The notes beneath the pieces are model-generated. The model was not told where the DNA came from. It worked only from the letters and a program-made list of their open reading frames with translations, and did no database searches. Shown here one piece after another: positions 1-16,524 of a DNA stretch of 19,305 bases. The DNA is from a virus. Lineage: Duplodnaviria > Heunggongvirae > Uroviricota > Caudoviricetes. Every line of letters starts with the position of its first letter. Positions within the stretch are counted from its first letter, which is position 1. The stretch covers positions 1 to 19,305 of IMG/VR virus record IMGVR_UViG_3300029828_000038. One strand, written 5' to 3'. The translations under genes were made by a program, and so were the position numbers.

Positions 1-827
1 CCGGAAGTCTCTACCTGTTCTGTGGTCATCGCCTGGCATCTGATATCGAAATCATGATGCGTCAGCGCTTTAATGTGCTGAACCACATTATCTGGGCGAA
101 GCCGTCCGGACGCTGGAACGGATGCAACAAGGAAAGCCTGCGGGCGTATTTTCCGGCAACAGAACGCATTCTGTTTGCTGAACATTATCAGGGTCCATAC
201 CAGCCCAAAAATGACGGCTATGCGGCAAAGGGGCGCGAGCTAAAACAGCACGTCATGGCCCCGCTGATTTCTTACTTTCGTGATGCGCGTGAATCACTGG
301 GAATAACGTCAAAACAGATAGCGGAAGCCACCGGAAAGAAAAACATGGCTTCGCACTGGTTTGGTACCAGTCAGTGGCAGTTACCAAACGAGGGTGATTA
401 CAACAAATTGCAGGCGTTGTTTGCGCGTGTTGCGGCAGAAAAACATCAGCGCGGGGAACTGGAAAAGCCACACCACCAGCTGGTCAGCACATACAGTGAA
501 CTGAACCGGCAATATGCCAGCCTGCTGGAAGAGTACAAATCCCTGCGGCGTTATTTTTCCGTATCGGCAGCCGTTCCTTATACGGATGTCTGGACGCATA
601 AACCCGTGCAGTTTTATCCGGGCAAACATCCCTGTGAAAAACCGGCGGATATGCTCCGGCAAATAATCAATGCCAGCAGTCGCCCTGGTGATTTGGTTGC
701 TGATTTTTTTATGGGGTCTGGCTCAACAATAAAAGCGGCACTTTCACTGGGACGCCGTGCGATTGGCGTGGAACTGGAGGAAGAGAGATTTAATCAGACT
801 GTAAGTGAAATAAAAAATAATCGTTAA
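1..827 (+). CDS. DNA methyltransferase, N6-adenine/N4-cytosine (PF01555-like) family; 5' end lies outside the window
   Basis: Reading frame is open from window position 3 with no stop, through the track ORF 54..827. The protein carries HPCEKP (HPTQKP-like) followed by DLVADFFMGSGST (FxGxG AdoMet motif) and GRRAIGVELEE, the characteristic C-terminal half of this family. The DPPY-type motif would be upstream of the window. Confidence 0.75.
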   Translation, partial: GSLYLFCGHRLASDIEIMMRQRFNVLNHIIWAKPSGRWNGCNKESLRAYFPATERILFAEHYQGPYQPKNDGYAAKGRELKQHVMAPLISYFRDARESLGITSKQIAEATGKKNMASHWFGTSQWQLPNEGDYNKLQALFARVAAEKHQRGELEKPHHQLVSTYSELNRQYASLLEEYKSLRRYFSVSAAVPYTDVWTHKPVQFYPGKHPCEKPADMLRQIINASSRPGDLVADFFMGSGSTIKAALSLGRRAIGVELEEERFNQTVSEIKNNR

Positions 828-2888: not shown

Positions 2889-3153
2889 CCTTCCCGGATT
2901 GCTGAATGTGGCGTTATGCACGGTTATCGTGCTGACGCTCTTTTTTTATCGTCGCCGTGATTCCAGACATAAACCGCTGATGTCATGGCTGGCCTGGCTA
3001 CTGATGCTGCTTTATGCCTTTGCACCACTCAGCTATCTGTGCGGTCGCCCGTTAGCGGCGAACTGGCTGGCGGTGGGGCTTAATCTGCTGTTCTGCGTGC
3101 TGGTGATACGTGCACGCGGGAACGTCACAAAAATCTTTCCAATGTTGAGGTGA
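2878..3153 (+). CDS. Second lysis-cassette membrane protein (holin/antiholin-like, about three TM segments)
   Basis: ATG at 2878 preceded by GGAGGAGG, overlapping the upstream gene by 11 nt. The 91-aa product is hydrophobic with basic loops (FFYRRRDSRHK). Its stop TGA 3151-3153 is 2 nt before the endolysin start. Confidence 0.5.
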   Translation: MLSNLPGLLNVALCTVIVLTLFFYRRRDSRHKPLMSWLAWLLMLLYAFAPLSYLCGRPLAANWLAVGLNLLFCVLVIRARGNVTKIFPMLR

Positions 3154-3155
3154 AT

Positions 3156-3533
3156 ATGTCGGGTAAATTCAGATTCAGCCGTCGCAGTGAAAAAAATCTG
3201 GAGGGCGTCAAACCACAGCTGGTTGCTGTCGTTCGCCGTGCGCTGGAGCTGACGGAGGTTGATTTCGGTATTACGGAAGGCCTGCGCAGTAAGTATCGCC
3301 AGAAACAGCTGGTTGCGGCAGGGAAAAGCCAGACCATGAACAGCCGCCACCTGACAGGTGATGCGGTGGATGTTGTGGCCTACATTGGCAGCCAGGTGTC
3401 ATGGGACTGGCCTCTGTACGAGAAAATAGCGCAGGCATTTAAGCAGGCTGCCGCAGAGCTGGGAACTACCATCGAATGGGGCGGTGAGTGGCGGTCCTTA
3501 AAGGACGGGCCTCACTTTCAGTTGAAACGCTGA
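3156..3533 (+). CDS. Endolysin, L-alanyl-D-glutamate peptidase (peptidase M15 / VanY-like, phage T5 Lys-like)
   Basis: ATG at 3156 with GAGGTG upstream. The 125-aa product has the T5-Lys-like pattern: KFRFS..SEKNL..VKPQL..RRALEL, the zinc-ligand motif SRHLTGDAVD, and C-terminal EWGGEW...DGPHFQL. Confidence 0.85.
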   Translation: MSGKFRFSRRSEKNLEGVKPQLVAVVRRALELTEVDFGITEGLRSKYRQKQLVAAGKSQTMNSRHLTGDAVDVVAYIGSQVSWDWPLYEKIAQAFKQAAAELGTTIEWGGEWRSLKDGPHFQLKR

Positions 3534-4180: not shown

Positions 4181-4262
4181 GGTGCGGTAGTTACTGAGTA
4201 ACAGGCATTACAGCAGCCCTTCAGTGAGGGGCTGCGATAATGCCGGTATTAAGGAGATTCCA

Positions 4263-4613
4263 ATGCCATCACGAATCCCCCGCGCATGCCGTAAGCGAGG
4301 TTGCGCAGGCACGACAACAGACAGCTCTGGCTACTGCGATAAACATCGGGGTGAAGGCTGGGTGCAGCACCAGCGCGGACTGAGCCGCCACCAGCGTGGC
4401 TATGGCTCAAAATGGACGGTGATTCGAGCCCGTATTCTGAAGCGCGATAAAGGTCTGTGTCAGTTGTGTCTGCGTGTCGGTGTGGTGCGCGAGGCGAAAA
4501 CTGTCGACCACATCATCCCGAAAGCACATGGCGGAACAGATGCAGACAGCAACCTGCAGAGTCTGTGCTGGCCCTGCCACAAAGCGAAAACAGCGCGCGA
4601 ACGAATCAGGTGA
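4263..4613 (+). CDS. HNH endonuclease (packaging-associated, HK97 gp74-like position)
   Basis: ATG at 4263 with AAGGAG upstream. The product has Cys-rich zinc-finger-like CRKRGCAG...CDKH and the HNH core DHIIPKAHGG...N...CWPCHKAKT. It lies directly upstream of the terminase small subunit. Confidence 0.85.
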   Translation: MPSRIPRACRKRGCAGTTTDSSGYCDKHRGEGWVQHQRGLSRHQRGYGSKWTVIRARILKRDKGLCQLCLRVGVVREAKTVDHIIPKAHGGTDADSNLQSLCWPCHKAKTARERIR

Positions 4614-4760: not shown

Positions 4761-5243
4761 ATGTCAGGACCCCCGAAAACCCCGCCACGCCTGCATTTGA
4801 TACGAGGCAACCCATCAAAGCGCCCCGTTAAAGACCCCAAAAAAACCGCTAAAAAGGACGAAAAAGGTCTCCCTAAAATTCCGCAACATTTAGGGGCGCA
4901 GGGGAAGTACTGGTTCAGGCGAATGGCGGAAGAACTGAATGCGGAAGGGATCATTTCTCAGCTTGATGCGCGTGCACTCGAGTTGCTGGTGGAAGCCTAC
5001 ACCGAATACCGGCATCACTGCGAAATACTCGATGTTGAGGGTTATACCTACCGCACGGAAACGCAGAACGGTGATGTGCTGATTAAGGCACACCCGGCTG
5101 CTGCGATGAAAGCGGATGCCTGGAAGCGGATCCGGGCGATGCTTGCAGAGTTTGGTATGTCACCGGCAAGCCGGGCGAAAGTAAATACCGCCGGACCGGA
5201 TGATGTTGATCCGCTGGCGGAACTTTTAAAAGCGAGAGACTGA
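4761..5243 (+). CDS. Terminase small subunit, P27 family
   Basis: 160-aa product with a basic N-terminus (PKTPPRLHLIRGNPSKRP...) and the P27-family core YWFRRMAEEL...LDARALELLVEAY...HPAAAMKADAWKRIRAMLAEFGMSPASRAK. Its stop overlaps the large-subunit start (TGATG). Confidence 0.85.
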   Translation: MSGPPKTPPRLHLIRGNPSKRPVKDPKKTAKKDEKGLPKIPQHLGAQGKYWFRRMAEELNAEGIISQLDARALELLVEAYTEYRHHCEILDVEGYTYRTETQNGDVLIKAHPAAAMKADAWKRIRAMLAEFGMSPASRAKVNTAGPDDVDPLAELLKARD

Positions 5244-7194: not shown

Positions 7195-8435
7195 TGTTTT
7201 TCCAGGGGCTTTTTCAACGCAAAAATAACACCCCCGTCACAACGCCCGGGATGCTTGCGGAAGAGCTGGGGTTGTCATACGACACCTATACCGGAAAGCG
7301 GATCAGCAGCCAGCGGGCCATGCGGCTGACGGCGGTCTATTCCTGCGTCAGGGTGCTGGCTGAGTCTGTTGGTATGCTGCCCTGCAGTCTCTACAAAATC
7401 AGCGGCACCCTTAAAACACGGGCGGTGGATGAACGGCTGCATAAGCTGATTTCGGCAAAACCCAATGGCTACATGACGCCGCAGGAATTCTGGGAACTGG
7501 TTATCGTCTGCCTGTGTCTGCGGGGTAATTTTTACGCCTACAAGGTAAAGGCACTGGGGGAAGTGGTGGAGCTTCTTCCGATAGATCCGGGCTGTGTGGA
7601 ACCGAAGCTGAACAGCCAGTGGCAGCCGGTTTATCAGGTGACGTTTCCGGATGGTTCCGTGGATGTGCTGACCCAGAATGAAATCTGGCATGTGCGTACC
7701 CTGACGCTGGATGGACTTGTCGGTCTGAATCCCATTGCATATGCGCGCGAGGCCATTTCACTGGCAGCGGCAACCGAGGAGCATGGTGCCAGATTGTTTG
7801 GCAATGGCGCGGTAACATCCGGTGTGTTGCGTACGGATCAACAACTTTCTGACCAGGCTTATGCGCGTATCAAAAAGGATTTTGAGGAACGGCATGTCGG
7901 GCTGGGAAACTCTCATCGTCCGATGATTCTGGAAATGGGGCTGGACTGGAAAACGGTGGCACTGAATGCCGAGGACAGCCAGTTCCTGGAAACCCGCAAG
8001 TTTCAGCTGGAAGAAATCTGTCGCCTGTTCCGCGTGCCGCTGCATATGGTGCAGAACACCGATCGCGCCACCTTCAACAATATTGAAGAGCTGGGGCTTG
8101 GTTTCATTAACTATTCCCTTGTGCCGTATCTGACCCGTATTGAGCAGCGGATCAATACAGGGCTGGTCAGGGAGAGCAAGCAGGGAAAATTTTACGCCAA
8201 GTTTAATGCCGGAGCATTGTTGCGTGGCGACATGAAATCCCGCTTTGAAGCGTATGCCACGGGGATCAACTGGGGGATTTATTCCCCTAATGACTGCCGT
8301 GATCTGGAAGATATGAATCCCCGACCGGGCGGTGATGTGTATCTGACACCGATGAACATGACCACCAGTCCCTCTGCTGGCGATGACAACGGTAAGAAAA
8401 AGGAGAGTGGAGATGCAGACAAAACAGCGTCTTGA
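7194..8435 (+). CDS. Portal protein, HK97 family
   Basis: 413 aa, immediately downstream of terminase and upstream of the prohead protease. Sequence pattern typical of Phage_portal family. Confidence 0.9.
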   Translation: MFFQGLFQRKNNTPVTTPGMLAEELGLSYDTYTGKRISSQRAMRLTAVYSCVRVLAESVGMLPCSLYKISGTLKTRAVDERLHKLISAKPNGYMTPQEFWELVIVCLCLRGNFYAYKVKALGEVVELLPIDPGCVEPKLNSQWQPVYQVTFPDGSVDVLTQNEIWHVRTLTLDGLVGLNPIAYAREAISLAAATEEHGARLFGNGAVTSGVLRTDQQLSDQAYARIKKDFEERHVGLGNSHRPMILEMGLDWKTVALNAEDSQFLETRKFQLEEICRLFRVPLHMVQNTDRATFNNIEELGLGFINYSLVPYLTRIEQRINTGLVRESKQGKFYAKFNAGALLRGDMKSRFEAYATGINWGIYSPNDCRDLEDMNPRPGGDVYLTPMNMTTSPSAGDDNGKKKESGDADKTAS

Positions 8436-9063
8436 TATACCGCTGAACCTGAAATCCGTCAGTGATTCCGGGGAATTTGAAGGTTACGGTTCTGTTTTTG
8501 GTGTTAAGGACAGCCACGATGATGTGGTGGTCCCCGGAGCCTTTACCACAACACTCCAGAAATGGAGCGAAAAAAAGGCGCTGCCTGCGTTGCTCTGGCA
8601 GCACCGCATGGATGAGCCCATCGGTGTGTACACCGAAATGAAAGAAGATGATGTCGGGCTTTATGTCAGGGGACGATTACTCATTGATGATGATCCCCTG
8701 GCAAAACGTGCACATGCCCATATGAAGGCCGGTTCTTTAACCGGCCTTTCTATTGGCTACATCCTGAAAGACTGGGAGTACGACCGGGAAAAAGGGGTAT
8801 TCCTGCTGAAAGAGATCGACCTGTGGGAGGTCAGTCTGGTGACGTTTCCTTCCAATGATGAAGCACGCATCAGCGATGTGAAAAATGCGCTGGCGCGTGG
8901 GGAGATCCCTGATCAGAAAATTATTGAGCGGGTCCTGCGCGATGTTGGACTCTCGCGAACCCAGGCCAAAGCATTCATGGCCGGGGGATATGGCGCTTTA
9001 TCCCTGCGTGATGCTGAGGATGTGGATGCCGCACTGAATGCACTGAAAAATCTTAAATTTTAA
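8413..9063 (+). CDS. Prohead protease, HK97 family (peptidase S78/U35)
   Basis: ATG at 8413 with AAGGAGAGTGGAG upstream. Chosen over the track start 8383, which has no RBS. Conserved region GYGSVFGVKDSHDDVVVPGAF and position between portal and capsid. Confidence 0.85.
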   Translation: MQTKQRLDIPLNLKSVSDSGEFEGYGSVFGVKDSHDDVVVPGAFTTTLQKWSEKKALPALLWQHRMDEPIGVYTEMKEDDVGLYVRGRLLIDDDPLAKRAHAHMKAGSLTGLSIGYILKDWEYDREKGVFLLKEIDLWEVSLVTFPSNDEARISDVKNALARGEIPDQKIIERVLRDVGLSRTQAKAFMAGGYGALSLRDAEDVDAALNALKNLKF

Positions 9064-11012: not shown

Positions 11013-11458
11013 TGGATTTCAGTCTTGATTTTTCAGGTCTGGCGGATATTGCACGGGATCTGGAGACGCTCAGCAGGGCAGAAAACAATAAGGTTCTGCG
11101 CGATGCCACCCGTGCCGGTGCTGAAGTTATGCGGGATGCAGTTGTTGAACGTGCGCCGGAGCGAACCGGGAAACTGAAGAAAAATGTGGTTGTTCTCACG
11201 CAGCGTTCAAAGCGTCGGGGGGAAATTATCTCGGGTGTCCACATTCGCGGACGGAACCTGCGAACCGGAAACAGTGATAACAGCATGAAAGCCAGCGATC
11301 CCCGAAATGCGTTTTACTGGCGCTTTGTGGAGCTGGGAACGATAAACATGCCCGCGCATCCGTTCATTCGCCCGGCTTTCGATACGACAGAGGAACTGGC
11401 AGCACAGATTGCCATACAGCGAATGAATCAGGCTATTGATGAGGTCTTAAGTAAATGA
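11012..11458 (+). CDS. HK97 gp10-family protein (neck / tail-completion)
   Basis: ATG at 11012 overlapping the upstream stop (TGATG); the track begins 3 nt earlier at GTG 11009. Motif VVERAPERTGKLKKN and ...HPFIRPAF typical of the family. Confidence 0.8.
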   Translation: MDFSLDFSGLADIARDLETLSRAENNKVLRDATRAGAEVMRDAVVERAPERTGKLKKNVVVLTQRSKRRGEIISGVHIRGRNLRTGNSDNSMKASDPRNAFYWRFVELGTINMPAHPFIRPAFDTTEELAAQIAIQRMNQAIDEVLSK

Positions 11459-11799
11459 GGGAAGCCACACTGTATTCCCTGCTGTCTCAACTGGCCGGAG
11501 GACAGGTTTATCCTTATGTGGTCCCGCTGACGGAGGGAAAGCCTGCGGTATCTCCGCCGTGGCTGGTGTTTTCTGTGGTGTCTGACACGGCGTCTGATGT
11601 GCTTGATGGTCAGGCTGAATCCAGAATTACCGTGCAGATCGATGTCTGGGCAACAGTACCTGATGACGCAGATGATATCCGTGAGCAGGCGCTTGATGCG
11701 GTAAGGCAACTTGCACCCTCCGTTATTTCTAAAACTCAGGGTTATGATCCTGATTCCCGTCTGAGCAGAGCCACGCTTGAATTTCAGGTAATAGCCTGA
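11455..11799 (+). CDS. Tail terminator-like protein (DUF3168-like, lambda gpU position)
   Basis: ATG at 11455 overlapping the upstream stop (ATGA). 114 aa. Position directly upstream of the major tail protein. Confidence 0.7.
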   Translation: MREATLYSLLSQLAGGQVYPYVVPLTEGKPAVSPPWLVFSVVSDTASDVLDGQAESRITVQIDVWATVPDDADDIREQALDAVRQLAPSVISKTQGYDPDSRLSRATLEFQVIA

Positions 11800-11820
11800 G
11801 GTCGTTAATGATTTTACCCA

Positions 11821-11846
11821 CCCGCCGCTGGCGGGTTTTTTATTTT
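11821..11846 (+). terminator. Terminator-like hairpin plus T-tract between tail terminator and major tail genes
   Basis: Stem CCCGCC / GGCGGG with loop GCT (11821-11835), followed by TTTTTTATTTT. Immediately upstream of the RBS CAGGAGACG of the major tail gene. Confidence 0.45.
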
Positions 11847-11858
11847 CAGGAGACGAGT

Positions 11859-12563
11859 ATGTCCTCTAATTTTGAGCGTTCGCAACTGACGAAAATTATG
11901 ATTTCGTCTGCACCGGTAACAGCAGAAACCCTGGATTCTGCCAGCTATCTTGGCCTGAGCTGTACAATCAAAGAGGTGCAGTTTACCGCAGGACAAAAGC
12001 AGGATATTGATGTCACCACGCTGTGTTCTGTTGAGCAGGAAAATATTAACGGCCTTGGTGCCGCGTCAGAGATTTCCATGTCAGGCAACTTTTACCTCAA
12101 TGCTGCCCAGAACGCGTTGCGCAGTGCCTATGACAATGACACCACGTATGGCTTTAAAGTTATTTTTCCGTCAGGCAACGGATTTACCTTTATGGCAGAG
12201 GTGCGTCAGCATACCTGGTCTGCAGGAACTAATGGTGTTGTGGCTGCAACGTTTTCCCTGCGCCTGAAAGGTAAACCTGTGCTGACGACAGAGCCGCTGA
12301 AAGTGAAGGTCGATTTAAACAGCACGCTGCAGGTTTCTGCCGGAGCGAAACTCGAAATGGTGGTTGAGGCTGCCGGTGGTGTGCCGCCTTATTCTTATGT
12401 CTGGAAGAAAGGTAGTTCTCCTGTTTCCGGACAGACGGCGGCAACATTCAGTAAGGCATCAGCAGCATCAGGTGATGCCGGTGCGTATACCTGCGAGATT
12501 TCTGATTCAGCAAGCCCTGTTAACAAGGTGACCTCCACTTCCTGCACTGTTACCGTCAGTTAA
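11859..12563 (+). CDS. Major tail (tube) protein with C-terminal Ig-like (Big_2-type) domain
   Basis: ATG at 11859 with AGGAGACGAG upstream; the track start 11808 would read through the hairpin. The C-terminal ~90 aa has the Ig-like signature (...PPYSYVWKKG...AGAYTCEISDSAS...TVTVS). Confidence 0.85.
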   Translation: MSSNFERSQLTKIMISSAPVTAETLDSASYLGLSCTIKEVQFTAGQKQDIDVTTLCSVEQENINGLGAASEISMSGNFYLNAAQNALRSAYDNDTTYGFKVIFPSGNGFTFMAEVRQHTWSAGTNGVVAATFSLRLKGKPVLTTEPLKVKVDLNSTLQVSAGAKLEMVVEAAGGVPPYSYVWKKGSSPVSGQTAATFSKASAASGDAGAYTCEISDSASPVNKVTSTSCTVTVS

Positions 12564-12577
12564 TGAGGATAGATGTG

Positions 12578-12949
12578 ATGACTAAAAATATCCGCAATCT
12601 GGCACTGGCAACGATGTCGGGGTTTCGCCATAAAACTGTTGATGTGCCTGAATGGGAAGGGGCAACGGTTGTATTACGGGAACCTTCTGCAGAAGCCTGG
12701 TTGCGCTGGCAGGAGATCGTTAAAGCAAAAGATGATGAGACACCGTTATCCGTTGCGGAGCGCGCCCGCCGAAATCTGGAGGCAGATGTTGAACTGTTCA
12801 TTGATGTTCTGTGTGATACCGGACTGCAACCTGTATTTTCAGAGGATGATCGTGAACAGGTGATTGCCGTGTATGGCCCGGTGCATGCGCGGCTTCTTCG
12901 GCAGTCTCTGGAACTGATCAGTGATGCCGGCGAGGTTAAAAAAAAGTAG
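12578..12949 (+). CDS. Tail assembly chaperone (lambda gpG equivalent)
   Basis: ATG at 12578 with GAGGATAGATGTG upstream; the alternative start is ATG 12563, coupled as TAATG. The ORF ends ...GEVKKK then TAG 12947-12949, immediately after the slippery heptamer. Confidence 0.75.
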   Translation: MTKNIRNLALATMSGFRHKTVDVPEWEGATVVLREPSAEAWLRWQEIVKAKDDETPLSVAERARRNLEADVELFIDVLCDTGLQPVFSEDDREQVIAVYGPVHARLLRQSLELISDAGEVKKK

Positions 12950-13251
12950 AGCTTCCGGGGATGCGTTTTCTGATGATGCTGGCGCTCAGGATGGGGCGCA
13001 CATTGTCAGAGTTACGCCGGGAAATGTCCGCATCAGAAATCATGATGTGGGCAGAATTTGACAGGTACAGCCCGCTGGGTGACGAGCGGGCTGATATCCG
13101 GGCTGCCCAGATAGTTTCTGCGGTTTACGGTGCGCAGGGTGTCAAAGTCCCACTGAATGATGCGCTTCTTCAGTGGGAACAAGAGCAGACAGAAGGCGTC
13201 TCAGATCCATTTGCCGGACTGGAAAACGCGCTTTTAATAGTGTCTCAGTGA
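12578..13251 (+). CDS. Tail assembly chaperone frameshift fusion product (lambda gpGT equivalent), made by a -1 shift at 12940-12946
   Basis: Frame relationship verified by hand: G is in frame 2 and the downstream ORF (track 12961..13251) is in frame 1. The fusion would read ...GEVKKK-VELPGMRFLMML... to the stop at 13249-13251. Position between major tail and tape measure matches the conserved G/GT arrangement. Confidence 0.6.
12940..12946 (+). other. Slippery heptamer A AAA AAG for -1 programmed ribosomal frameshift (G to GT)
   Basis: In the G frame the codons are AAA (12941) AAG (12944) TAG (12947). The -1 frame has a stop at 12937-12939 and is open from 12940 (AAA AAA GTA GAG CTT CCG GGG ATG...) into the downstream ORF ending 13251. 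Confidence 0.65.
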
Positions 13252-13260
13252 GTCAACATA

Positions 13261-13280
13261 ACCGCTTCGGCGGTTTTTTT
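13261..13280 (+). terminator. Terminator-like hairpin (UUCG tetraloop) plus T-tract upstream of the tape measure gene
   Basis: ACCGC-TTCG-GCGGT (13261-13274) followed by T7, then the RBS GGAGA and ATG 13291. Confidence 0.45.
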
Positions 13281-13290
13281 CGTCCGGAGA

Positions 13291-16200
13291 ATGAGTGTGG
13301 CGACATTACGTGAACTGATTATTAAAATCTCGGCAAATTCCCGGTCATTCCAGTCAGAGATCTCCCGGGCTTCGCGTATGGGGCAGGATTACTACCGTAC
13401 CATGCAGAACGGAGGCCGGCAGTCCGCTGCTGCATCCCGTGAAATGCGGCGTGCACTGGCAGAAGTGACGGATCAGATAAATACAGCTAAATCTTCGGCA
13501 CTGAATATGGCGGGGGCATTTGCCGGAGCTTTTGCTACCGGTCATCTTATTTCTCTCGCCGATGAGTGGAATTCAGTAAATGCCCGTCTGAAGCAGGCTT
13601 CACAGTCCAGTGATGATTTTCAGGTATCACAACGTGAATTAATGGCAATCAGCCAGAGAACGGGAACGGCGTTTTCTGATAACGCCAGCCTTTTTGCCCG
13701 CTCTGCAGCTTCCATGCGGGAGTATGGCTACAGTTCTGAGGAGGTACTGAAAGTCACCGAGGCGATCTCCACGGGCCTGAAATTATCCGGTGCCAGTACA
13801 GCAGAAGCCAGTTCGGTGATCACGCAGTTCAGTCAGGCACTGGCGCAGGGAGTGCTGCGCGGTGAAGAATTTAACTCTGTGAATGAGAACGGCGATCGTG
13901 TTATTCGTGCGCTGGCTGCGGGAATGGGTGTTGCCCGTAAGGATCTGAAGGCCATGGCGGATAACGGAAAACTGACCGCCGATAAGGTTGTTCCTGCACT
14001 GATTAGTCAGCTTGGGGCGTTGCGTGATGAATATGCAGCAATGCCTGATACTGTTTCATCCTCTGCAACCAAAGTTGAAAACGCCTTTATGGCCTGGGTT
14101 GGTGGTGCGAACGAGGCAAGCGGAGTGACAAAGACACTCACCGGGGTGTTGAATGGTGTTGCAGACAATATTGATACCGTGGCTGCTGCAGCTGGCGCAC
14201 TGGTTGCCGTCGGGGTAGCCCGATATTTTGGCAATATGGCGTCGTCTGCTGGATCTGCAACTGCCGGATTAATTACTGCAGCCAGAAACGAAGTGGCTCT
14301 TGCTGAAGCGCAACTTCGGGGGACACAGATAGCAACCGCCAGGGCGCGTGCGGCGGTTTATCGTGCGCAACAGGCGGTTGTTGCTGCTCGCGGTACCGAA
14401 AGGCAGGCCGCAGCAGAAGCGAAGCTGACAGCTGCCCAGGCGTCACTTACCCGTAATATTGCGGCCAGAACAGCGGCACAGACAACGCTGAATACTGTCA
14501 CGTCAGTGGGGAGTCGTCTGTTAAGTGGTGCGCTGGGGTTGGTTGGTGGTGTGCCGGGACTCGTCATGCTGGGGGCGACGGCCTGGTACACGATGTATCA
14601 GAATCAGGAGCAGGCCAGAGAATCTGCACGCCAGTATGCCGCAACAATCGACGAAATTCGCCAGAAAACGTCGGCAATGTCGCTTCCTGAAGCGTCAGAT
14701 AATGAGGAAAAGACGCGGCAGGCACTTGATGAGCAAAACAGGTTAATTGACGAGCAGAAAAGTAAGATTAAATCCTTACAGGAAAAAATTGCTGGCTATC
14801 AGTATGTGCTGGCAAACCCGGGCTGGACAACCGATAACGGTTTTATGATTAACCACATGACGTCGGTAAAAACTGTCACAGAAGGGCTTGCAGAAGCAAC
14901 AAATCAACTGGCAGTTGAACAGTCCCGTCTCACACAAATGCAGGGCAAAGCGCAATCCATTCAGGATGTGCTTGCCGGGCTGGAGGAGCGACGGGTGGCG
15001 TTGATCCGTCAACAGGCCGCGGAACAAAACAAAGCGTATCAGTCCCTGTTGATCATGAATGGGCAGCATACCGAGTTTAATCGCCTTCTCGGGCTCGGTA
15101 ATGAATTACTTCAGCAGCGACAGGGGCTGGTGAATGTACCGTTACGGCTACCACAGGCAACCCTGGATGATAAACAGCAGACCGCACTGAATAACAGCGA
15201 GCGCGAACTGGCTCTGTCCCGCCTGAAGGGGGAAGCCCGTGAGCGTGCCCGCCTGGGTTATGCTGCGGATGATCTCGGCTTTGTGGGAGAGGCGTATCAG
15301 ACAGCCAGACAGAATTATATCAATAACTCACTGGATGCCTGGCGAAATAACCAGGCAAATAAACCCAAAGCGCATAAAAAGACCGAAGCGGAAAAAACAG
15401 AAGATATTTATAAACGGCTGATTAAACAGCAAAAAGAACAAATAGCACTGGCAGGGCAGAATACTGAACTGGCTAAGATGAAATATCAGGTCAGTCAGGG
15501 CGAATTATCAACCCTGTCAGAAGCGCAGAAAAAAACGCTTTTGCAGAATGCAGCACTCATCGACCAGAAAAAGATTCGTGAGCAGCTTGCTGCGTATGAG
15601 AGCAGTCTGGCGGACAGTAATGCCAGTGCCCGGGCATCTGACGACGCGCAGTTGCTGGGATATGGTGAAGGCTCACGGATGCGTGAACGACTCCAGGAAA
15701 TGTGGAGTATCCGGCAGACGTTTGAGCAGAAAAATAACGAACTGCTGAGACAGTATCAGGCCGGAGAAATTGAAGAAGCCCTGTGGAAACAGGAGAAAGA
15801 ACTGAATAAAAAATATCTGGAAGAGCGTCTCAGCGATCAGCAGGATTATTATGCAAAGGCCGATGCTTTACGTAATAACTGGAATGCCGGACTCCAGGAA
15901 GGACTGACCAACTGGGCAGACAGTGCCACCGATTATGCTTCACAGGCGGCAGATGCTGTCGTTTCCACGATGGACGGGCTGGTATCAAATATTTCCGATG
16001 CACTGGCCGGGAATGTTGTGGAGTGGAGGAACTGGGGGAGTTCAGTTCTCCGGGAAGTTTCAAAAATTCTGATGAATGCAGCCATTGTTAACGGACTGAA
16101 ATCACTCTCCGGTGCCGGAGGGTGGCTTGGTACGGTCGGCGGATGGATTTCGGGGGCGGTGGCAAACGCAAAAGGTGGTGTTTACACATCGGCAAATCTG

Positions 16201-16524
16201 AGTGCTTACAGTAACACTATTGTGGATACACCGACGTATTTTGCTTTTGCGAAAGGTGCCGGGCTGATGGGTGAGGCCGGGCCTGAAGCTATCATGCCAC
16301 TGACACGGGCAGCGGACGGCTCTCTTGGGGTCAGAGCCATTGGCAATGTGAATGGTGGCGGTGGATTTGTTTATTCTCCCGTGTATCACATCAGCATTCA
16401 GAATCAAGGGAGCAATGGCGAGATAGATACGCGCTCAGCCAGGGGACTGGTGGATCTGATCGACAGCAGGGTTGTGTCAATTATGCAGTCATCGCGTCGG
16501 GATGGAGGATTATACAGTGCCTGA
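13291..16524 (+). CDS. Tail tape measure protein (1077 aa)
   Basis: Very long Ala/Gln-rich helical protein downstream of the G/GT chaperone. C-terminal region resembles lambda gpH (…WADSATDYASQ…, …RRDGGLYSA). Confidence 0.9.
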   Translation: MSVATLRELIIKISANSRSFQSEISRASRMGQDYYRTMQNGGRQSAAASREMRRALAEVTDQINTAKSSALNMAGAFAGAFATGHLISLADEWNSVNARLKQASQSSDDFQVSQRELMAISQRTGTAFSDNASLFARSAASMREYGYSSEEVLKVTEAISTGLKLSGASTAEASSVITQFSQALAQGVLRGEEFNSVNENGDRVIRALAAGMGVARKDLKAMADNGKLTADKVVPALISQLGALRDEYAAMPDTVSSSATKVENAFMAWVGGANEASGVTKTLTGVLNGVADNIDTVAAAAGALVAVGVARYFGNMASSAGSATAGLITAARNEVALAEAQLRGTQIATARARAAVYRAQQAVVAARGTERQAAAEAKLTAAQASLTRNIAARTAAQTTLNTVTSVGSRLLSGALGLVGGVPGLVMLGATAWYTMYQNQEQARESARQYAATIDEIRQKTSAMSLPEASDNEEKTRQALDEQNRLIDEQKSKIKSLQEKIAGYQYVLANPGWTTDNGFMINHMTSVKTVTEGLAEATNQLAVEQSRLTQMQGKAQSIQDVLAGLEERRVALIRQQAAEQNKAYQSLLIMNGQHTEFNRLLGLGNELLQQRQGLVNVPLRLPQATLDDKQQTALNNSERELALSRLKGEARERARLGYAADDLGFVGEAYQTARQNYINNSLDAWRNNQANKPKAHKKTEAEKTEDIYKRLIKQQKEQIALAGQNTELAKMKYQVSQGELSTLSEAQKKTLLQNAALIDQKKIREQLAAYESSLADSNASARASDDAQLLGYGEGSRMRERLQEMWSIRQTFEQKNNELLRQYQAGEIEEALWKQEKELNKKYLEERLSDQQDYYAKADALRNNWNAGLQEGLTNWADSATDYASQAADAVVSTMDGLVSNISDALAGNVVEWRNWGSSVLREVSKILMNAAIVNGLKSLSGAGGWLGTVGGWISGAVANAKGGVYTSANLSAYSNTIVDTPTYFAFAKGAGLMGEAGPEAIMPLTRAADGSLGVRAIGNVNGGGGFVYSPVYHISIQNQGSNGEIDTRSARGLVDLIDSRVVSIMQSSRRDGGLYSA

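What the first reader, a model, noticed from the sequence alone, without database searches (positions are those of the whole stretch)
12935..12961. Canonical -1 programmed frameshift site (A AAA AAG) producing the chaperone fusion
The slippery heptamer sits in the last two sense codons of the G-like ORF and the -1 frame opens exactly there, giving an unbroken fusion to the downstream T-like ORF ending at 13251. The frames were checked by hand. This is the conserved tail-chaperone frameshift of long-tailed phages and confirms the gene calls, but it is not novel.
Basis: partly seen in the sequence, partly recalled or inferred. Interest (0 to 1): 0.4.

Follow-up and report, generated by a model that had tools for sequence, protein, structure and literature searches.

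The report
Phage tail-chaperone −1 frameshift site
This is the well-known "slippery" spot at which a few percent of ribosomes slip back one base to make a longer version of a phage tail-assembly helper protein; it is real, conserved and correctly read, but ordinary and already catalogued for this gene family.

Summary
Observation confirmed. A AAA AAG lies at 12940-12946 as the last two sense codons of a 123-aa ORF (12578-12949, stop TAG). The −1 frame is closed by TAA at 12937-12939 and then runs open to TGA at 13249-13251. This gives a 224-aa fusion with junction ...EVKKK|VELPGMRF.

The upstream part is Pfam Phage_TAC_1, the HK97 gp13 type (PDB 2OB9). The downstream part is Phage_tail_T, the lambda T family. 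The pair sits between the major tail and tape-measure genes of an HK97-like E. coli prophage found in 903 of 5,426 complete E. coli genomes.

In 51 intact related loci (27-70% identity) the T part is always in the −1 frame. A lysine slip site (A_AAG; G_GGA_AAC in two) sits at the homologous position. Residues upstream of any start codon are conserved.

The same arrangement (A AAA AAG TAG) occurs in ECs1801, the published representative of frameshift cluster A_AAA_AAG_25. HK97-like members gave 6-7% frameshifting in reporters.

- G is not a lambda-G homologue by sequence.
- The run is 8 A, so RNA-polymerase slippage could give the same protein.
- The stop abuts the heptamer.

No convincing stimulatory RNA structure was found. 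Already known; low interest.

The parts
12578..12949 (+). G-type tail assembly chaperone ORF (123 aa; an alternative upstream ATG at 12563 overlaps the major-tail stop). The likely ribosome-binding site is GAGGA at 12565-12569, 8 nt before ATG 12578.
   Evidence: PF06222 Phage_TAC_1, E = 2.4e-58, matched end to end 1-123 of 124. phrog_344 tail assembly chaperone. PDB 2OB9 'Tail assembly chaperone', E = 2e-54 to the family profile. All public annotations start it at the position equivalent to 12578. Sequence.
12940..12946 (+). Slippery heptamer A AAA AAG. The P-site codon is AAA 12941-43 and the A-site codon is AAG 12944-46. These are the last two sense codons of G.
   Evidence: The identical heptamer plus immediate stop occurs in ECs1801, phage 2851 and 14 genome loci.
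12938..12945 (+). Run of 8 A that contains the heptamer. It is a possible RNA-polymerase slippage tract.
   Evidence: It is invariant in all 84 near-identical viral contigs. A8 is also present in the Serratia (L098), Symbiopectobacterium (L101, L103, L105, L106), Brenneria (L102) and Pectobacterium (L107) loci.
12947..12949 (+). Zero-frame stop TAG directly abutting the heptamer (a 'shifty stop' context). After a −1 slip its first two bases are read as part of GTA (Val).
   Evidence: In 25 of 42 intact genome loci, AAG is followed directly by a stop.
12937..12939 (+). Last stop (TAA) of the −1 frame upstream of the T segment. It limits the two-frame overlap to 7 nt.
12946..13251 (+). T segment, read in the −1 frame: 101 codons, VELPGMRFLMMLALRMGRTL...LIVSQ, stop TGA 13249-13251. 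G12946 is read twice. The GT fusion is 12578-12946 joined to 12946-13251, giving 224 aa.
   Evidence: PF06223 Phage_tail_T, E = 1.1e-18. phrog_14766, a 224-position fused family, matches both halves. tblastn of the fusion covers 100% in two pieces in related phages. Translation.
12961..12963 (+). ATG used by public annotation as the start of a separate 'tail assembly protein T' CDS. It is probably not a conserved start. GGGG abuts it with no spacer.
   Evidence: An ATG at this position is present in only 13 of 51 related loci, while conserved residues (V, P) lie upstream of it.
12968..13011 (+). Predicted hairpin shared with a sub-clade. Its role as a frameshift stimulator is unsupported: its base lies 21 nt 3' of the heptamer.
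   Evidence: MFE −31.7 kcal/mol, z = −1.86. Sub-clade consensus −14 kcal/mol with 2 adjacent compensatory pairs. Covariation is no better than the slid controls, and the outer helix that would give a 6-nt spacer is only 45% paired. There is no family-wide structure.
13260..13280 (+). Terminator-like hairpin AACCGCTTCGGCGGTT followed by T7, lying between the end of GT and the tape-measure gene.
   Evidence: HK97 and HK446 records annotate putative rho-independent terminators at the equivalent place.
11808..12563 (+). Major tail protein gene with a C-terminal Ig-like domain (context). RefSeq's start codon corresponds to window 11859.
   Evidence: phrog_158 major tail protein, E = 1e-109. Ig_2/Ig_3 and tail-tube Pfam hits. 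Start.
13291..16524 (+). Tape-measure protein gene (context). RefSeq's start codon corresponds to GTG 13297.
   Evidence: PF06120, PF20155 and PF09718. phrog_339. Start.

Best explanation
The site is the programmed −1 ribosomal frameshift of an HK97-type tail assembly chaperone gene pair.

Most ribosomes translating the chaperone gene (12578-12949) terminate at TAG 12947 and release the 123-aa G-type chaperone. A minority, probably a few percent, slip one base backwards on A AAA AAG. The single E. coli lysine tRNA pairs weakly with AAG and re-pairs with AAA. Translation then continues with GTA GAG CTT CCG... in the −1 frame to 13251. The product is a 224-aa G-T fusion whose C-terminal T domain belongs to the lambda T family.

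By analogy with lambda, many copies of G and few of GT coat the tape-measure protein. The T domain recruits the major tail protein, and neither chaperone stays in the finished tail.

What is shown here: the sequence anatomy, the family membership of both halves, the gene context, and the conservation of the −1 architecture and of the slip site.

What is inferred: that the fusion is actually made, its level, and its role in tail assembly.

The slip may occur in tandem (AAA in the P site, AAG in the A site). It may also occur as a single P-site slip of the lysine tRNA on A_AAG while the adjacent stop codon waits in the A site. Both routes give the same protein.
For: Anatomy: heptamer, abutting stop, 7-nt overlap and 101-codon −1 ORF.

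Family: PF06222 on the G part and PF06223 on the T part. The fused-profile phrog_14766 matches both halves. PDB 2OB9 matches at E = 2e-54.

Context: the pair lies between the major tail and tape-measure genes of an HK97-like module with TerS/TerL, portal, S78 protease and HK97-fold capsid.

Conservation:
- tblastn of the fusion hits 226 phage records. All 53 listed rows that cover both halves do so as two pieces, i.e. in two frames.
- The T part is in the −1 frame in 9 of 9 diverse phages and 42 of 44 genome loci.
- The slip lysine aligns within one codon across phages sharing 29-68% identity in G.
- Slip sites in the 42 intact genome loci: A AAA AAG 16, G GAA AAG 8, G GGA AAG 5, G GGA AAC 2, non-canonical N NNA AAG plus stop 11.
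- The −1-frame peptide V..P...FLM.LALR.GRTL is conserved. In 38 of 51 loci there is no start codon between the slip site and the conserved Met.
- HK97, HK446 and Bcep176 records annotate the joined frameshift product.

Literature:
- ECs1801 is 68% identical and has the identical A AAA AAG TAG. It represents cluster A_AAA_AAG_25, 'tail assembly chaperone; [true]' (PMC4066793).
- The HK97-like chaperone cluster gave 6% and 7% frameshifting in reporters (PMC3711429).
- The lambda G:GT mechanism and its 30:1 ratio are reviewed in PMC5009743.
- A_AA.A_AA.G is among the most efficient E. coli heptamers (PMC4066793).
Against: No direct evidence of the fusion protein exists for this particular prophage. 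None of the near-identical public records joins the two CDS; RefSeq calls T as a separate gene from ATG 12961.

No convincing stimulatory element was found. The SD-like GAGG lies only 4 nt upstream, whereas PMC4066793 searched 6-17 nt upstream of the motif for SD-like stimulators. The downstream hairpin is inconclusive.

The 8-A run means that part or all of the fusion could arise at the transcript level instead.
Confidence: 0.88

Rival explanations
1. Transcriptional slippage. RNA polymerase stutters on the 8-A tract (12938-12945) and adds one A to a fraction of transcripts. Standard translation of those A9 mRNAs yields exactly the same ...KKKVELPG... fusion, so the recoding is at the transcript level, or partly so.
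For: The run is 8 A. PMC3711429 lists A runs with n > 7 among motifs implicated in programmed transcriptional realignment. PMC5009743 reports efficient in vivo slippage at runs of 9 A or T. A8 is invariant in 84 near-identical contigs. It recurs in several related loci from other genera. A +1A transcript encodes the same protein (inference).
Against: Twenty-four of the 42 intact related loci have only 3 or 4 consecutive A at the slip site (for example A GCA AAG, G GGA AAG, G GAA AAG), and another 11 have A6 or A7. Only 7 have A8, so the family-level mechanism must be ribosomal. Eight A is below the 9-nt tract for which high efficiency was shown. ECs1801, with only A6, is the published 'true' case.
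Confidence: 0.08
2. There is no recoding. T is an independent 96-aa protein initiated, or re-initiated after termination at TAG 12947, at ATG 12961, as current genome annotations imply.
For: RefSeq and GenBank records annotate a separate CDS from the position equivalent to 12961. The ATG lies only 11 nt after the G stop, a distance compatible with re-initiation. A Met in the motif FLM is present in 48 of 51 relatives.
Against: The ATG at 12961 is present in only 13 of 51 loci. Thirty-eight of 51 have no start codon between the slip site and the FLM Met, yet the residues before it (V, P, F, L) are conserved in the −1 frame. The FLM Met is absent in Rahnella (FFLF) and displaced in the Pseudomonas loci. 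GGGG abuts ATG 12961 with no spacer. T is in the −1 frame in every intact locus, with a lysine slip site at the G end, which independent initiation would not require. In lambda only G and GT are described (PMC5009743).
Confidence: 0.03
3. The site is an artefact or pseudogene. A single G-T gene has been broken by a homopolymer indel, either a mutation or a sequencing error in the A run.
For: Homopolymer runs are hot spots for indels. One related record (ON470580.1) shows an extra split within T. Two genome loci (L108, L124) are indeed disrupted.
Against: The same two-frame arrangement is present in 903 complete E. coli genomes, in 84 viral contigs with an identical A8G, and in relatives whose slip sites are not homopolymers. 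A G stop codon directly after, or near, the slip site is conserved.
Confidence: 0.01

Closest known systems
Phage HK97 gp13/gp14 (tail assembly chaperone and its −1 frameshift product; NC_002167 7472-7858 and 7472-8145)
   Same: Same Pfam family for G (PF06222). 79 of 128 residues identical. Same position between the major tail and tape-measure genes. Same −1 relation. The lysine AAG slip codon is at the homologous position. A solved structure of the family exists: 2OB9.
   Different: HK97 uses the imperfect heptamer G GAA AAG, and its G ORF continues for 5 more codons. The window uses the perfect A AAA AAG inside an 8-A run, with the stop directly after it. HK97 also has a moron gene (gp15) between GT and the tape-measure gene that is absent here.
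E. coli O157:H7 Sakai prophage Sp9 ECs1801/ECs1802, published frameshift cluster A_AAA_AAG_25 (Sharma et al. 2014, PMC4066793; corresponds to GeneTack cluster 10 of Antonov et al. 2013, PMC3711429)
   Same: Identical signal A AAA AAG TAG on the last two sense codons. G is 68% identical. The fusion has the same T domain and is 226 aa against 224 aa. The cluster is marked 'true', and HK97-like members gave 6-7% in reporters.
   Different: ECs1801 has A6 preceded by G (AGA AAA AAG), not A8. Its −1 overlap is 22 nt, not 7. It has no ATG at the position of 12961.
Phage lambda G / GT (G GGA AAG; Levin, Hendrix & Casjens 1993; Xu, Hendrix & Duda 2004, 2013, 2014, as cited in PMC5009743)
   Same: Same gene position, same −1 direction, lysine AAG in the A site, and a T domain of the same Pfam family (PF06223: 67.8 bits here, 54.1 bits for lambda T). 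The presumed function is the same: setting a low GT:G ratio for tape-measure-templated tail assembly.
   Different: Lambda G belongs to PF06894 (Phage_TAC_2), not PF06222. There is no BLASTP similarity in either half, and hhalign probability is only 8%. The heptamers differ. Lambda's two frames overlap by at least the 19 nt shared by its annotated G and T CDS, against 7 nt here.
E. coli dnaX and IS911/IS3 A AAA AAG frameshift sites
   Same: Identical heptamer and the same slippery lysine tRNA logic.
   Different: Those sites rely on an upstream SD-like element and a downstream hairpin or pseudoknot to reach 15-50% (figure from my own knowledge). Here no stimulator is supported, and low efficiency is expected and appropriate.

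Membership tests
Conserved G/GT tail-assembly-chaperone −1 frameshift of long-tailed phages (Xu, Hendrix & Duda 2004 class) | Gene pair located between the major tail (tube) gene and the tape-measure gene | tested here: met
   Major tail gene 11808/11859-12563 and tape-measure gene 13291-16524 flank it.
Conserved G/GT tail-assembly-chaperone −1 frameshift of long-tailed phages (Xu, Hendrix & Duda 2004 class) | Second ORF in the −1 frame relative to the first, open across the end of the first | tested here: met
   The −1 frame is open from 12940 and the G stop is at 12947. The −1 relation holds in 9 of 9 phages and 42 of 44 genome loci.
Conserved G/GT tail-assembly-chaperone −1 frameshift of long-tailed phages (Xu, Hendrix & Duda 2004 class) | Slippery sequence in the overlap, in frame with the first ORF | tested here: met
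   A AAA AAG at 12940-12946 is in frame. A homologous slip lysine is present in relatives.
Conserved G/GT tail-assembly-chaperone −1 frameshift of long-tailed phages (Xu, Hendrix & Duda 2004 class) | Second ORF lacks a conserved start of its own; protein conservation extends upstream to the slip site | tested here: met
   Thirty-eight of 51 loci have no start codon between the slip site and the FLM Met. V and P upstream are conserved at 80% or more. The near-universal FLM Met leaves some room for internal initiation.
Conserved G/GT tail-assembly-chaperone −1 frameshift of long-tailed phages (Xu, Hendrix & Duda 2004 class) | Fusion protein is made at a low fixed ratio, and both products are required for tail assembly | not testable with these tools
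   Only indirect evidence: 6-7% in reporters for HK97-like cluster members (PMC3711429), and lambda genetics (PMC5009743).
Pfam PF06222 Phage_TAC_1 (HK97 gp13-type chaperone) | Score above the gathering threshold over the full-length profile | tested here: met
   195.9 bits against a cut-off of 25, profile positions 1-124 of 124. HK446 gp13 homologue scores 203 bits. PDB 2OB9 at E = 2e-54.
Pfam PF06223 Phage_tail_T | Score above the gathering threshold in the −1-frame segment | tested here: met
   67.8 bits against 25.9, fusion residues 151-219. Lambda T scores 54.1 bits in the same family.
Pfam PF06894 Phage_TAC_2 (lambda gpG family) | Sequence or profile similarity to lambda G | tested here: not met
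   No PF06894 hit for the window protein. BLASTP E = 4.9. hhalign probability 8%. Lambda G itself hits PF06894 at 206.9 bits.
Stimulated A AAA AAG sites (dnaX / IS911 type) | SD-like element 6-17 nt upstream of the motif | tested here: not met
   The only SD-like string is GAGG at 12932-12935, 4 nt from the heptamer, and it is not conserved in relatives. The spacing range is from PMC4066793.
Stimulated A AAA AAG sites (dnaX / IS911 type) | Stable, conserved hairpin or pseudoknot 5-9 nt downstream | tested here: inconclusive
   Window MFE z = −1.86 to −2.14. The family-wide consensus is −3.4 kcal/mol. The median z over 51 loci is −0.66. The sub-clade hairpin 12968-13011 has 2 compensatory pairs, but its covariation equals that of the slid controls.
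Programmed transcriptional realignment | Homopolymeric A or T tract long enough for RNA-polymerase slippage (efficient at 9 or more; n > 7 used as a criterion) | tested here: inconclusive
   The tract is 8 A. This meets the n > 7 criterion of PMC3711429 but falls below the 9-nt tract shown to be efficient (PMC5009743). Only 7 of 42 relatives have a tract that long.

The most novel reading that the evidence does not exclude
In this sub-clade the fusion may not be made, or not only made, by the textbook tandem slip. Two other contributions are possible. One is a single P-site slip of the lysine tRNA on A_AAG while the abutting stop codon is slowly decoded. This 'shifty stop' would tie GT output to release-factor availability. 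The other is RNA-polymerase stuttering on the 8-A tract. The family-wide pattern fits a stop-assisted mechanism that has not been dissected for tail chaperones: 25 of 42 loci have AAG directly followed by a stop, and 11 of those have no canonical heptamer.
Probability: 0.3. Interest if true: 0.3.

Novelty: already known. Interest (0 to 1): 0.1.

Why it matters
The practical value is in annotation. None of the near-identical public records examined (phages Evi and vB_EcoM-606R7, and RefSeq E. coli chromosomes) joins the two CDS. As a result the 224-aa GT protein of a prophage present in about one in six complete E. coli genomes is missing from protein sets, and T is listed as a free-standing 96-aa protein.

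Biologically the site fixes the G:GT ratio needed for tape-measure-templated tail assembly. That is established for lambda and adds nothing new in principle.

The comparative table of slip-site variants is a modest by-product. It covers perfect heptamers, imperfect heptamers, and a bare A_AAG plus stop. It could guide frameshift predictors, which miss many tail-chaperone sites.

Tried and rejected
- NCBIfam scan of the fusion: no family.
- BLASTP of both halves against lambda G and T: nothing. hhalign of the G profile against lambda G: 8% probability, with only an N-terminal EW.G.TV.L.E.S-like stretch.
- Xu et al. 2004 (Mol Cell) is not held in the library. It is cited only through reviews.
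It was repeated with 6 enterobacterial sequences.
- The viral-contig scan returned only 80 near-identical copies. These were useful only to show that A8G is invariant.
- Family-wide search for a downstream stimulatory structure: essentially none.
- Sub-clade hairpin: tested for covariation and found no better than slid controls. Rejected as evidence, though not excluded.
- Upstream SD-like stimulator: rejected on spacing and lack of conservation.
- A phage-encoded lysine tRNA that could modulate slipping: no tRNA genes in the window.
- Pseudogene or sequencing-error reading: rejected on conservation.
- In one search the few residues printed before the junction were translated out of frame through a scripting slip. 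They were ignored; only the post-slip peptide was used.
Full report
**1. The observation**

The window around the finding reads ...GCC GGC GAG GTT AAA AAA AAG TAG AGC TTC CGG GGA TGC....
- In the frame of the ORF that ends at 12949, the last two sense codons are AAA (12941-43) and AAG (12944-46). They are followed by TAG (12947-49).
- With the preceding A these give the canonical X XXY YYZ heptamer A AAA AAG at 12940-12946.
- The −1 frame has its last upstream stop at TAA 12937-39. It then stays open for 101 codons to TGA 13249-51.
- A −1 slip yields a 224-aa protein counted from ATG 12578.

The bare motif is not rare in the window: 10 copies on both strands against 4.0 ± 2.2 expected. Its placement is exceptional. 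Among 18 in-frame canonical heptamers in the 20 long ORFs, only this one occupies the final two sense codons and leads into a long −1 ORF with its own protein domain.

**2. What the two ORFs are**

- The upstream ORF matches Pfam Phage_TAC_1 (PF06222) end to end at 195.9 bits.
- The −1 segment matches Phage_tail_T (PF06223) at 67.8 bits.
- PHROGs gives 'tail assembly chaperone' for G. It also gives a fused 224-position family, phrog_14766, that matches both halves.
- A profile of G relatives hits PDB 2OB9, deposited as 'Tail assembly chaperone', at E = 2e-54.
- The pair is flanked by the major tail protein gene (with an Ig-like C-terminus) and a 1,077-aa tape-measure gene.
- It sits in an HK97-like module: HNH endonuclease, TerS, TerL, portal, S78 protease, HK97-fold capsid, gp10-like and gp17-like connectors, then tail proteins L and K.
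- The DNA is an E. coli prophage. It is 98% identical to phages Evi and phi467 and is present in 903 of 5,426 complete E. coli genomes.
- In those records the two ORFs are annotated separately, as 'phage tail assembly chaperone' and 'phage tail assembly protein T', and are never joined.

**3. Comparative test**

tblastn of the fusion finds 226 phage records. All 53 listed rows that cover both halves do so as two pieces, meaning two frames.

I dissected nine diverse phages: 2851, Stx2_EH1910, HK446, Klebsiella P7641, Cronobacter ENT39118, mEp390, Bordetella PHB09, and Burkholderia phiE125 and Bcep176. They share 29-68% identity in G. In all nine, T is in the −1 frame and the slip lysine aligns within one codon of the window's.

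A scan of one genome per bacterial species returned 44 loci at 27-70% identity. Forty-two are intact. Leclercia L108 and Symbiopectobacterium L124 are disrupted. All 42 have T in the −1 frame.

| Slip site | Loci |
|---|---|
| A AAA AAG with the stop immediately after | 14 |
| A AAA AAG with the stop 24-30 nt later | 2 |
| G GAA AAG | 8 |
| G GGA AAG | 5 |
| G GGA AAC | 2 |
| Non-canonical (A GCA AAG, G GCA AAG, A GAA AAG, G GTA AAG) followed directly by a stop | 11 |

The invariant core is therefore A_AAG (A_AAC in two loci) decoded by the lysine tRNA. In 25 of the 42 loci the stop abuts it.

The −1-frame peptide after the slip is conserved (V..P...FLM.LALR.GRTL). In 38 of 51 loci no ATG, GTG or TTG lies between the slip site and the conserved Met. 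The window's ATG 12961 is shared by only 13 of 51. This argues that the segment is reached by frameshifting, not by independent initiation. The HK97, HK446 and Bcep176 records annotate the joined product explicitly.

**4. Mechanism**

The best-supported mechanism is a low-efficiency −1 ribosomal slip of the lysine tRNA on A AAA AAG. This heptamer is among the most efficient in E. coli (PMC4066793).

I found no convincing stimulator.
- The only SD-like string (GAGG 12932-35) is 4 nt upstream. That is outside the 6-17 nt window that PMC4066793 searched for SD-like stimulators, and it is not conserved.
- A hairpin is predicted downstream at −31.7 kcal/mol with z ≈ −1.9 to −2.1.
- Across the family there is no consensus structure: −3.4 kcal/mol and median z −0.66 over 51 loci.
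- A sub-clade carrying the same A8G-stop signal (Brenneria, Symbiopectobacterium, Pectobacterium) shares the hairpin corresponding to 12968-13011, with two adjacent compensatory pairs.
- However, the covariation score equals that of slid controls. The outer helix that would bring the structure within 6 nt of the heptamer is only 45% paired.
- This agrees with the published table for cluster A_AAA_AAG_25, where the hairpin is no more stable than the local average (ΔΔG 0.020 ± 0.023).

Because the stop abuts the heptamer, a single P-site slip with the stop in the A site is equally possible. This is the 'shifty stop' of Weiss et al. 1987, listed in PMC5009743. It gives the same product. The 11 relatives with only A_AAG plus a stop make this plausible.

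**5. Rivals**

(a) Transcriptional slippage on the 8-A tract would add one A and encode the identical fusion. A runs with n > 7 are listed among realignment motifs (PMC3711429), and 9-nt tracts slip efficiently (PMC5009743). However, 24 of the 42 relatives have only 3 or 4 consecutive A at the slip site, and only 7 have A8. This can therefore be at most an add-on in this clade.

(b) Independent initiation or re-initiation of T at ATG 12961, as annotated. This is contradicted by the non-conservation of that ATG and by conserved residues upstream of it.

(c) A broken gene or a sequencing error. This is contradicted by conservation in hundreds of genomes and by relatives whose slip sites are not homopolymers.

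**6. Comparison with known systems**

- The nearest characterised relative is HK97 gp13/gp14: 79 of 128 residues identical and the same Pfam family. HK97 uses G GAA AAG, with five further G codons before the stop.
- The nearest published instance of the exact signal is ECs1801 of Sakai prophage Sp9. It is 68% identical, carries A AAA AAG TAG, and gives a 226-aa fusion.
- ECs1801 is the representative of cluster A_AAA_AAG_25, 'tail assembly chaperone; [true]', in Sharma et al. 2014. That paper equates it with GeneTack cluster 10 of Antonov et al. 2013.
- Antonov et al. tested two genes of an HK97-like tail assembly chaperone cluster, which gave 6% and 7% frameshifting.
- Relative to lambda, the T domain is in the same Pfam family. 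The G part is not: lambda G is PF06894, BLASTP finds nothing, and hhalign gives 8%. 'G-like' is therefore a positional and functional analogy.

**7. Verdict**

The feature is already known for this family with this very signal.

The remaining open points are minor: whether the abutting stop, the A8 tract or the sub-clade hairpin modulate efficiency. The main practical consequence is that public annotations of this widespread prophage omit the GT fusion.

Interest is 0.1.

Noticed in passing
window 5225-5231: A second canonical heptamer, T TTA AAA, lies in frame three codons before the stop of the small terminase gene (4761-5243). Its −1 frame is the large terminase frame, open for 589 codons, and the genes overlap as TGATG. 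A slip there would fuse TerS to TerL. It is probably coincidental to the translational-coupling overlap, but it is the only other heptamer in the window with a long −1 extension.
   Followed up: partly
window 13260-13280: A terminator-like hairpin (AACCGCTTCGGCGGTT followed by T7) lies in the 40-nt gap between the end of GT and the tape-measure gene. HK97 and HK446 records annotate putative terminators at the equivalent spot. It may attenuate tape-measure transcription relative to the tube and chaperone genes.
   Followed up: partly
window 11820-11846: A strong terminator-like hairpin (ACCCGCCGCTGGCGGGT followed by a T run) lies just after the tail-completion gene. It sits inside the longest major-tail ORF (ATG 11808). 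A good AGGAG ribosome-binding site precedes ATG 11859. The RefSeq start corresponding to 11859 is therefore probably right, and the GenBank phage starts at 11808 are probably too long.
   Followed up: partly
window 8571-8577 and 11535-11541: Two further efficient heptamers are in frame inside genes. A AAA AAG is in the prohead protease ORF (8383-9063), with a −1 extension of 12 codons. G GGA AAG is in the tail-completion gene (11455-11799), with a −1 extension of 14 codons. Either would give truncated products. No evidence of function was sought.
   Followed up: no
window 13291-13299: The tape-measure start is ambiguous. ATG 13291 has GGAG only 1 nt upstream. GTG 13297, which corresponds to RefSeq's start codon, has 7-nt spacing.
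   Followed up: no
L001 (ON470580.1) 2025-2352: In phage vB_EcoM-606R7 the T region is annotated as two overlapping short CDS in addition to G. That record aligns at 1,002 nt against the 1,001-nt query. This suggests an indel in T, either a sequencing error or a real disruption.
   Followed up: no
L108 (Leclercia adecarboxylata NCTC13032) and L124 (Ca. Symbiopectobacterium endolongispinus): These are the only two of 44 related genome loci where the G/T arrangement is broken: an early stop or a frame change inside G. The Symbiopectobacterium case fits prophage decay in a genome-reducing symbiont.
   Followed up: no
window 11808-12563 (C-terminal third): The major tail protein carries a C-terminal Ig-like domain (Ig_2/Ig_3, residues about 171-250). 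It also matches Hoc-like decoration PHROGs.
   Followed up: no
window 54-827 and 4224-4613: The left part of the window holds an N6/N4 DNA methylase fragment or ORF, a holin (2343-2888), an M15 peptidase endolysin (3150-3533), and an HNH endonuclease directly upstream of TerS. This is the usual HK97-like HNH-terminase arrangement.
   Followed up: no
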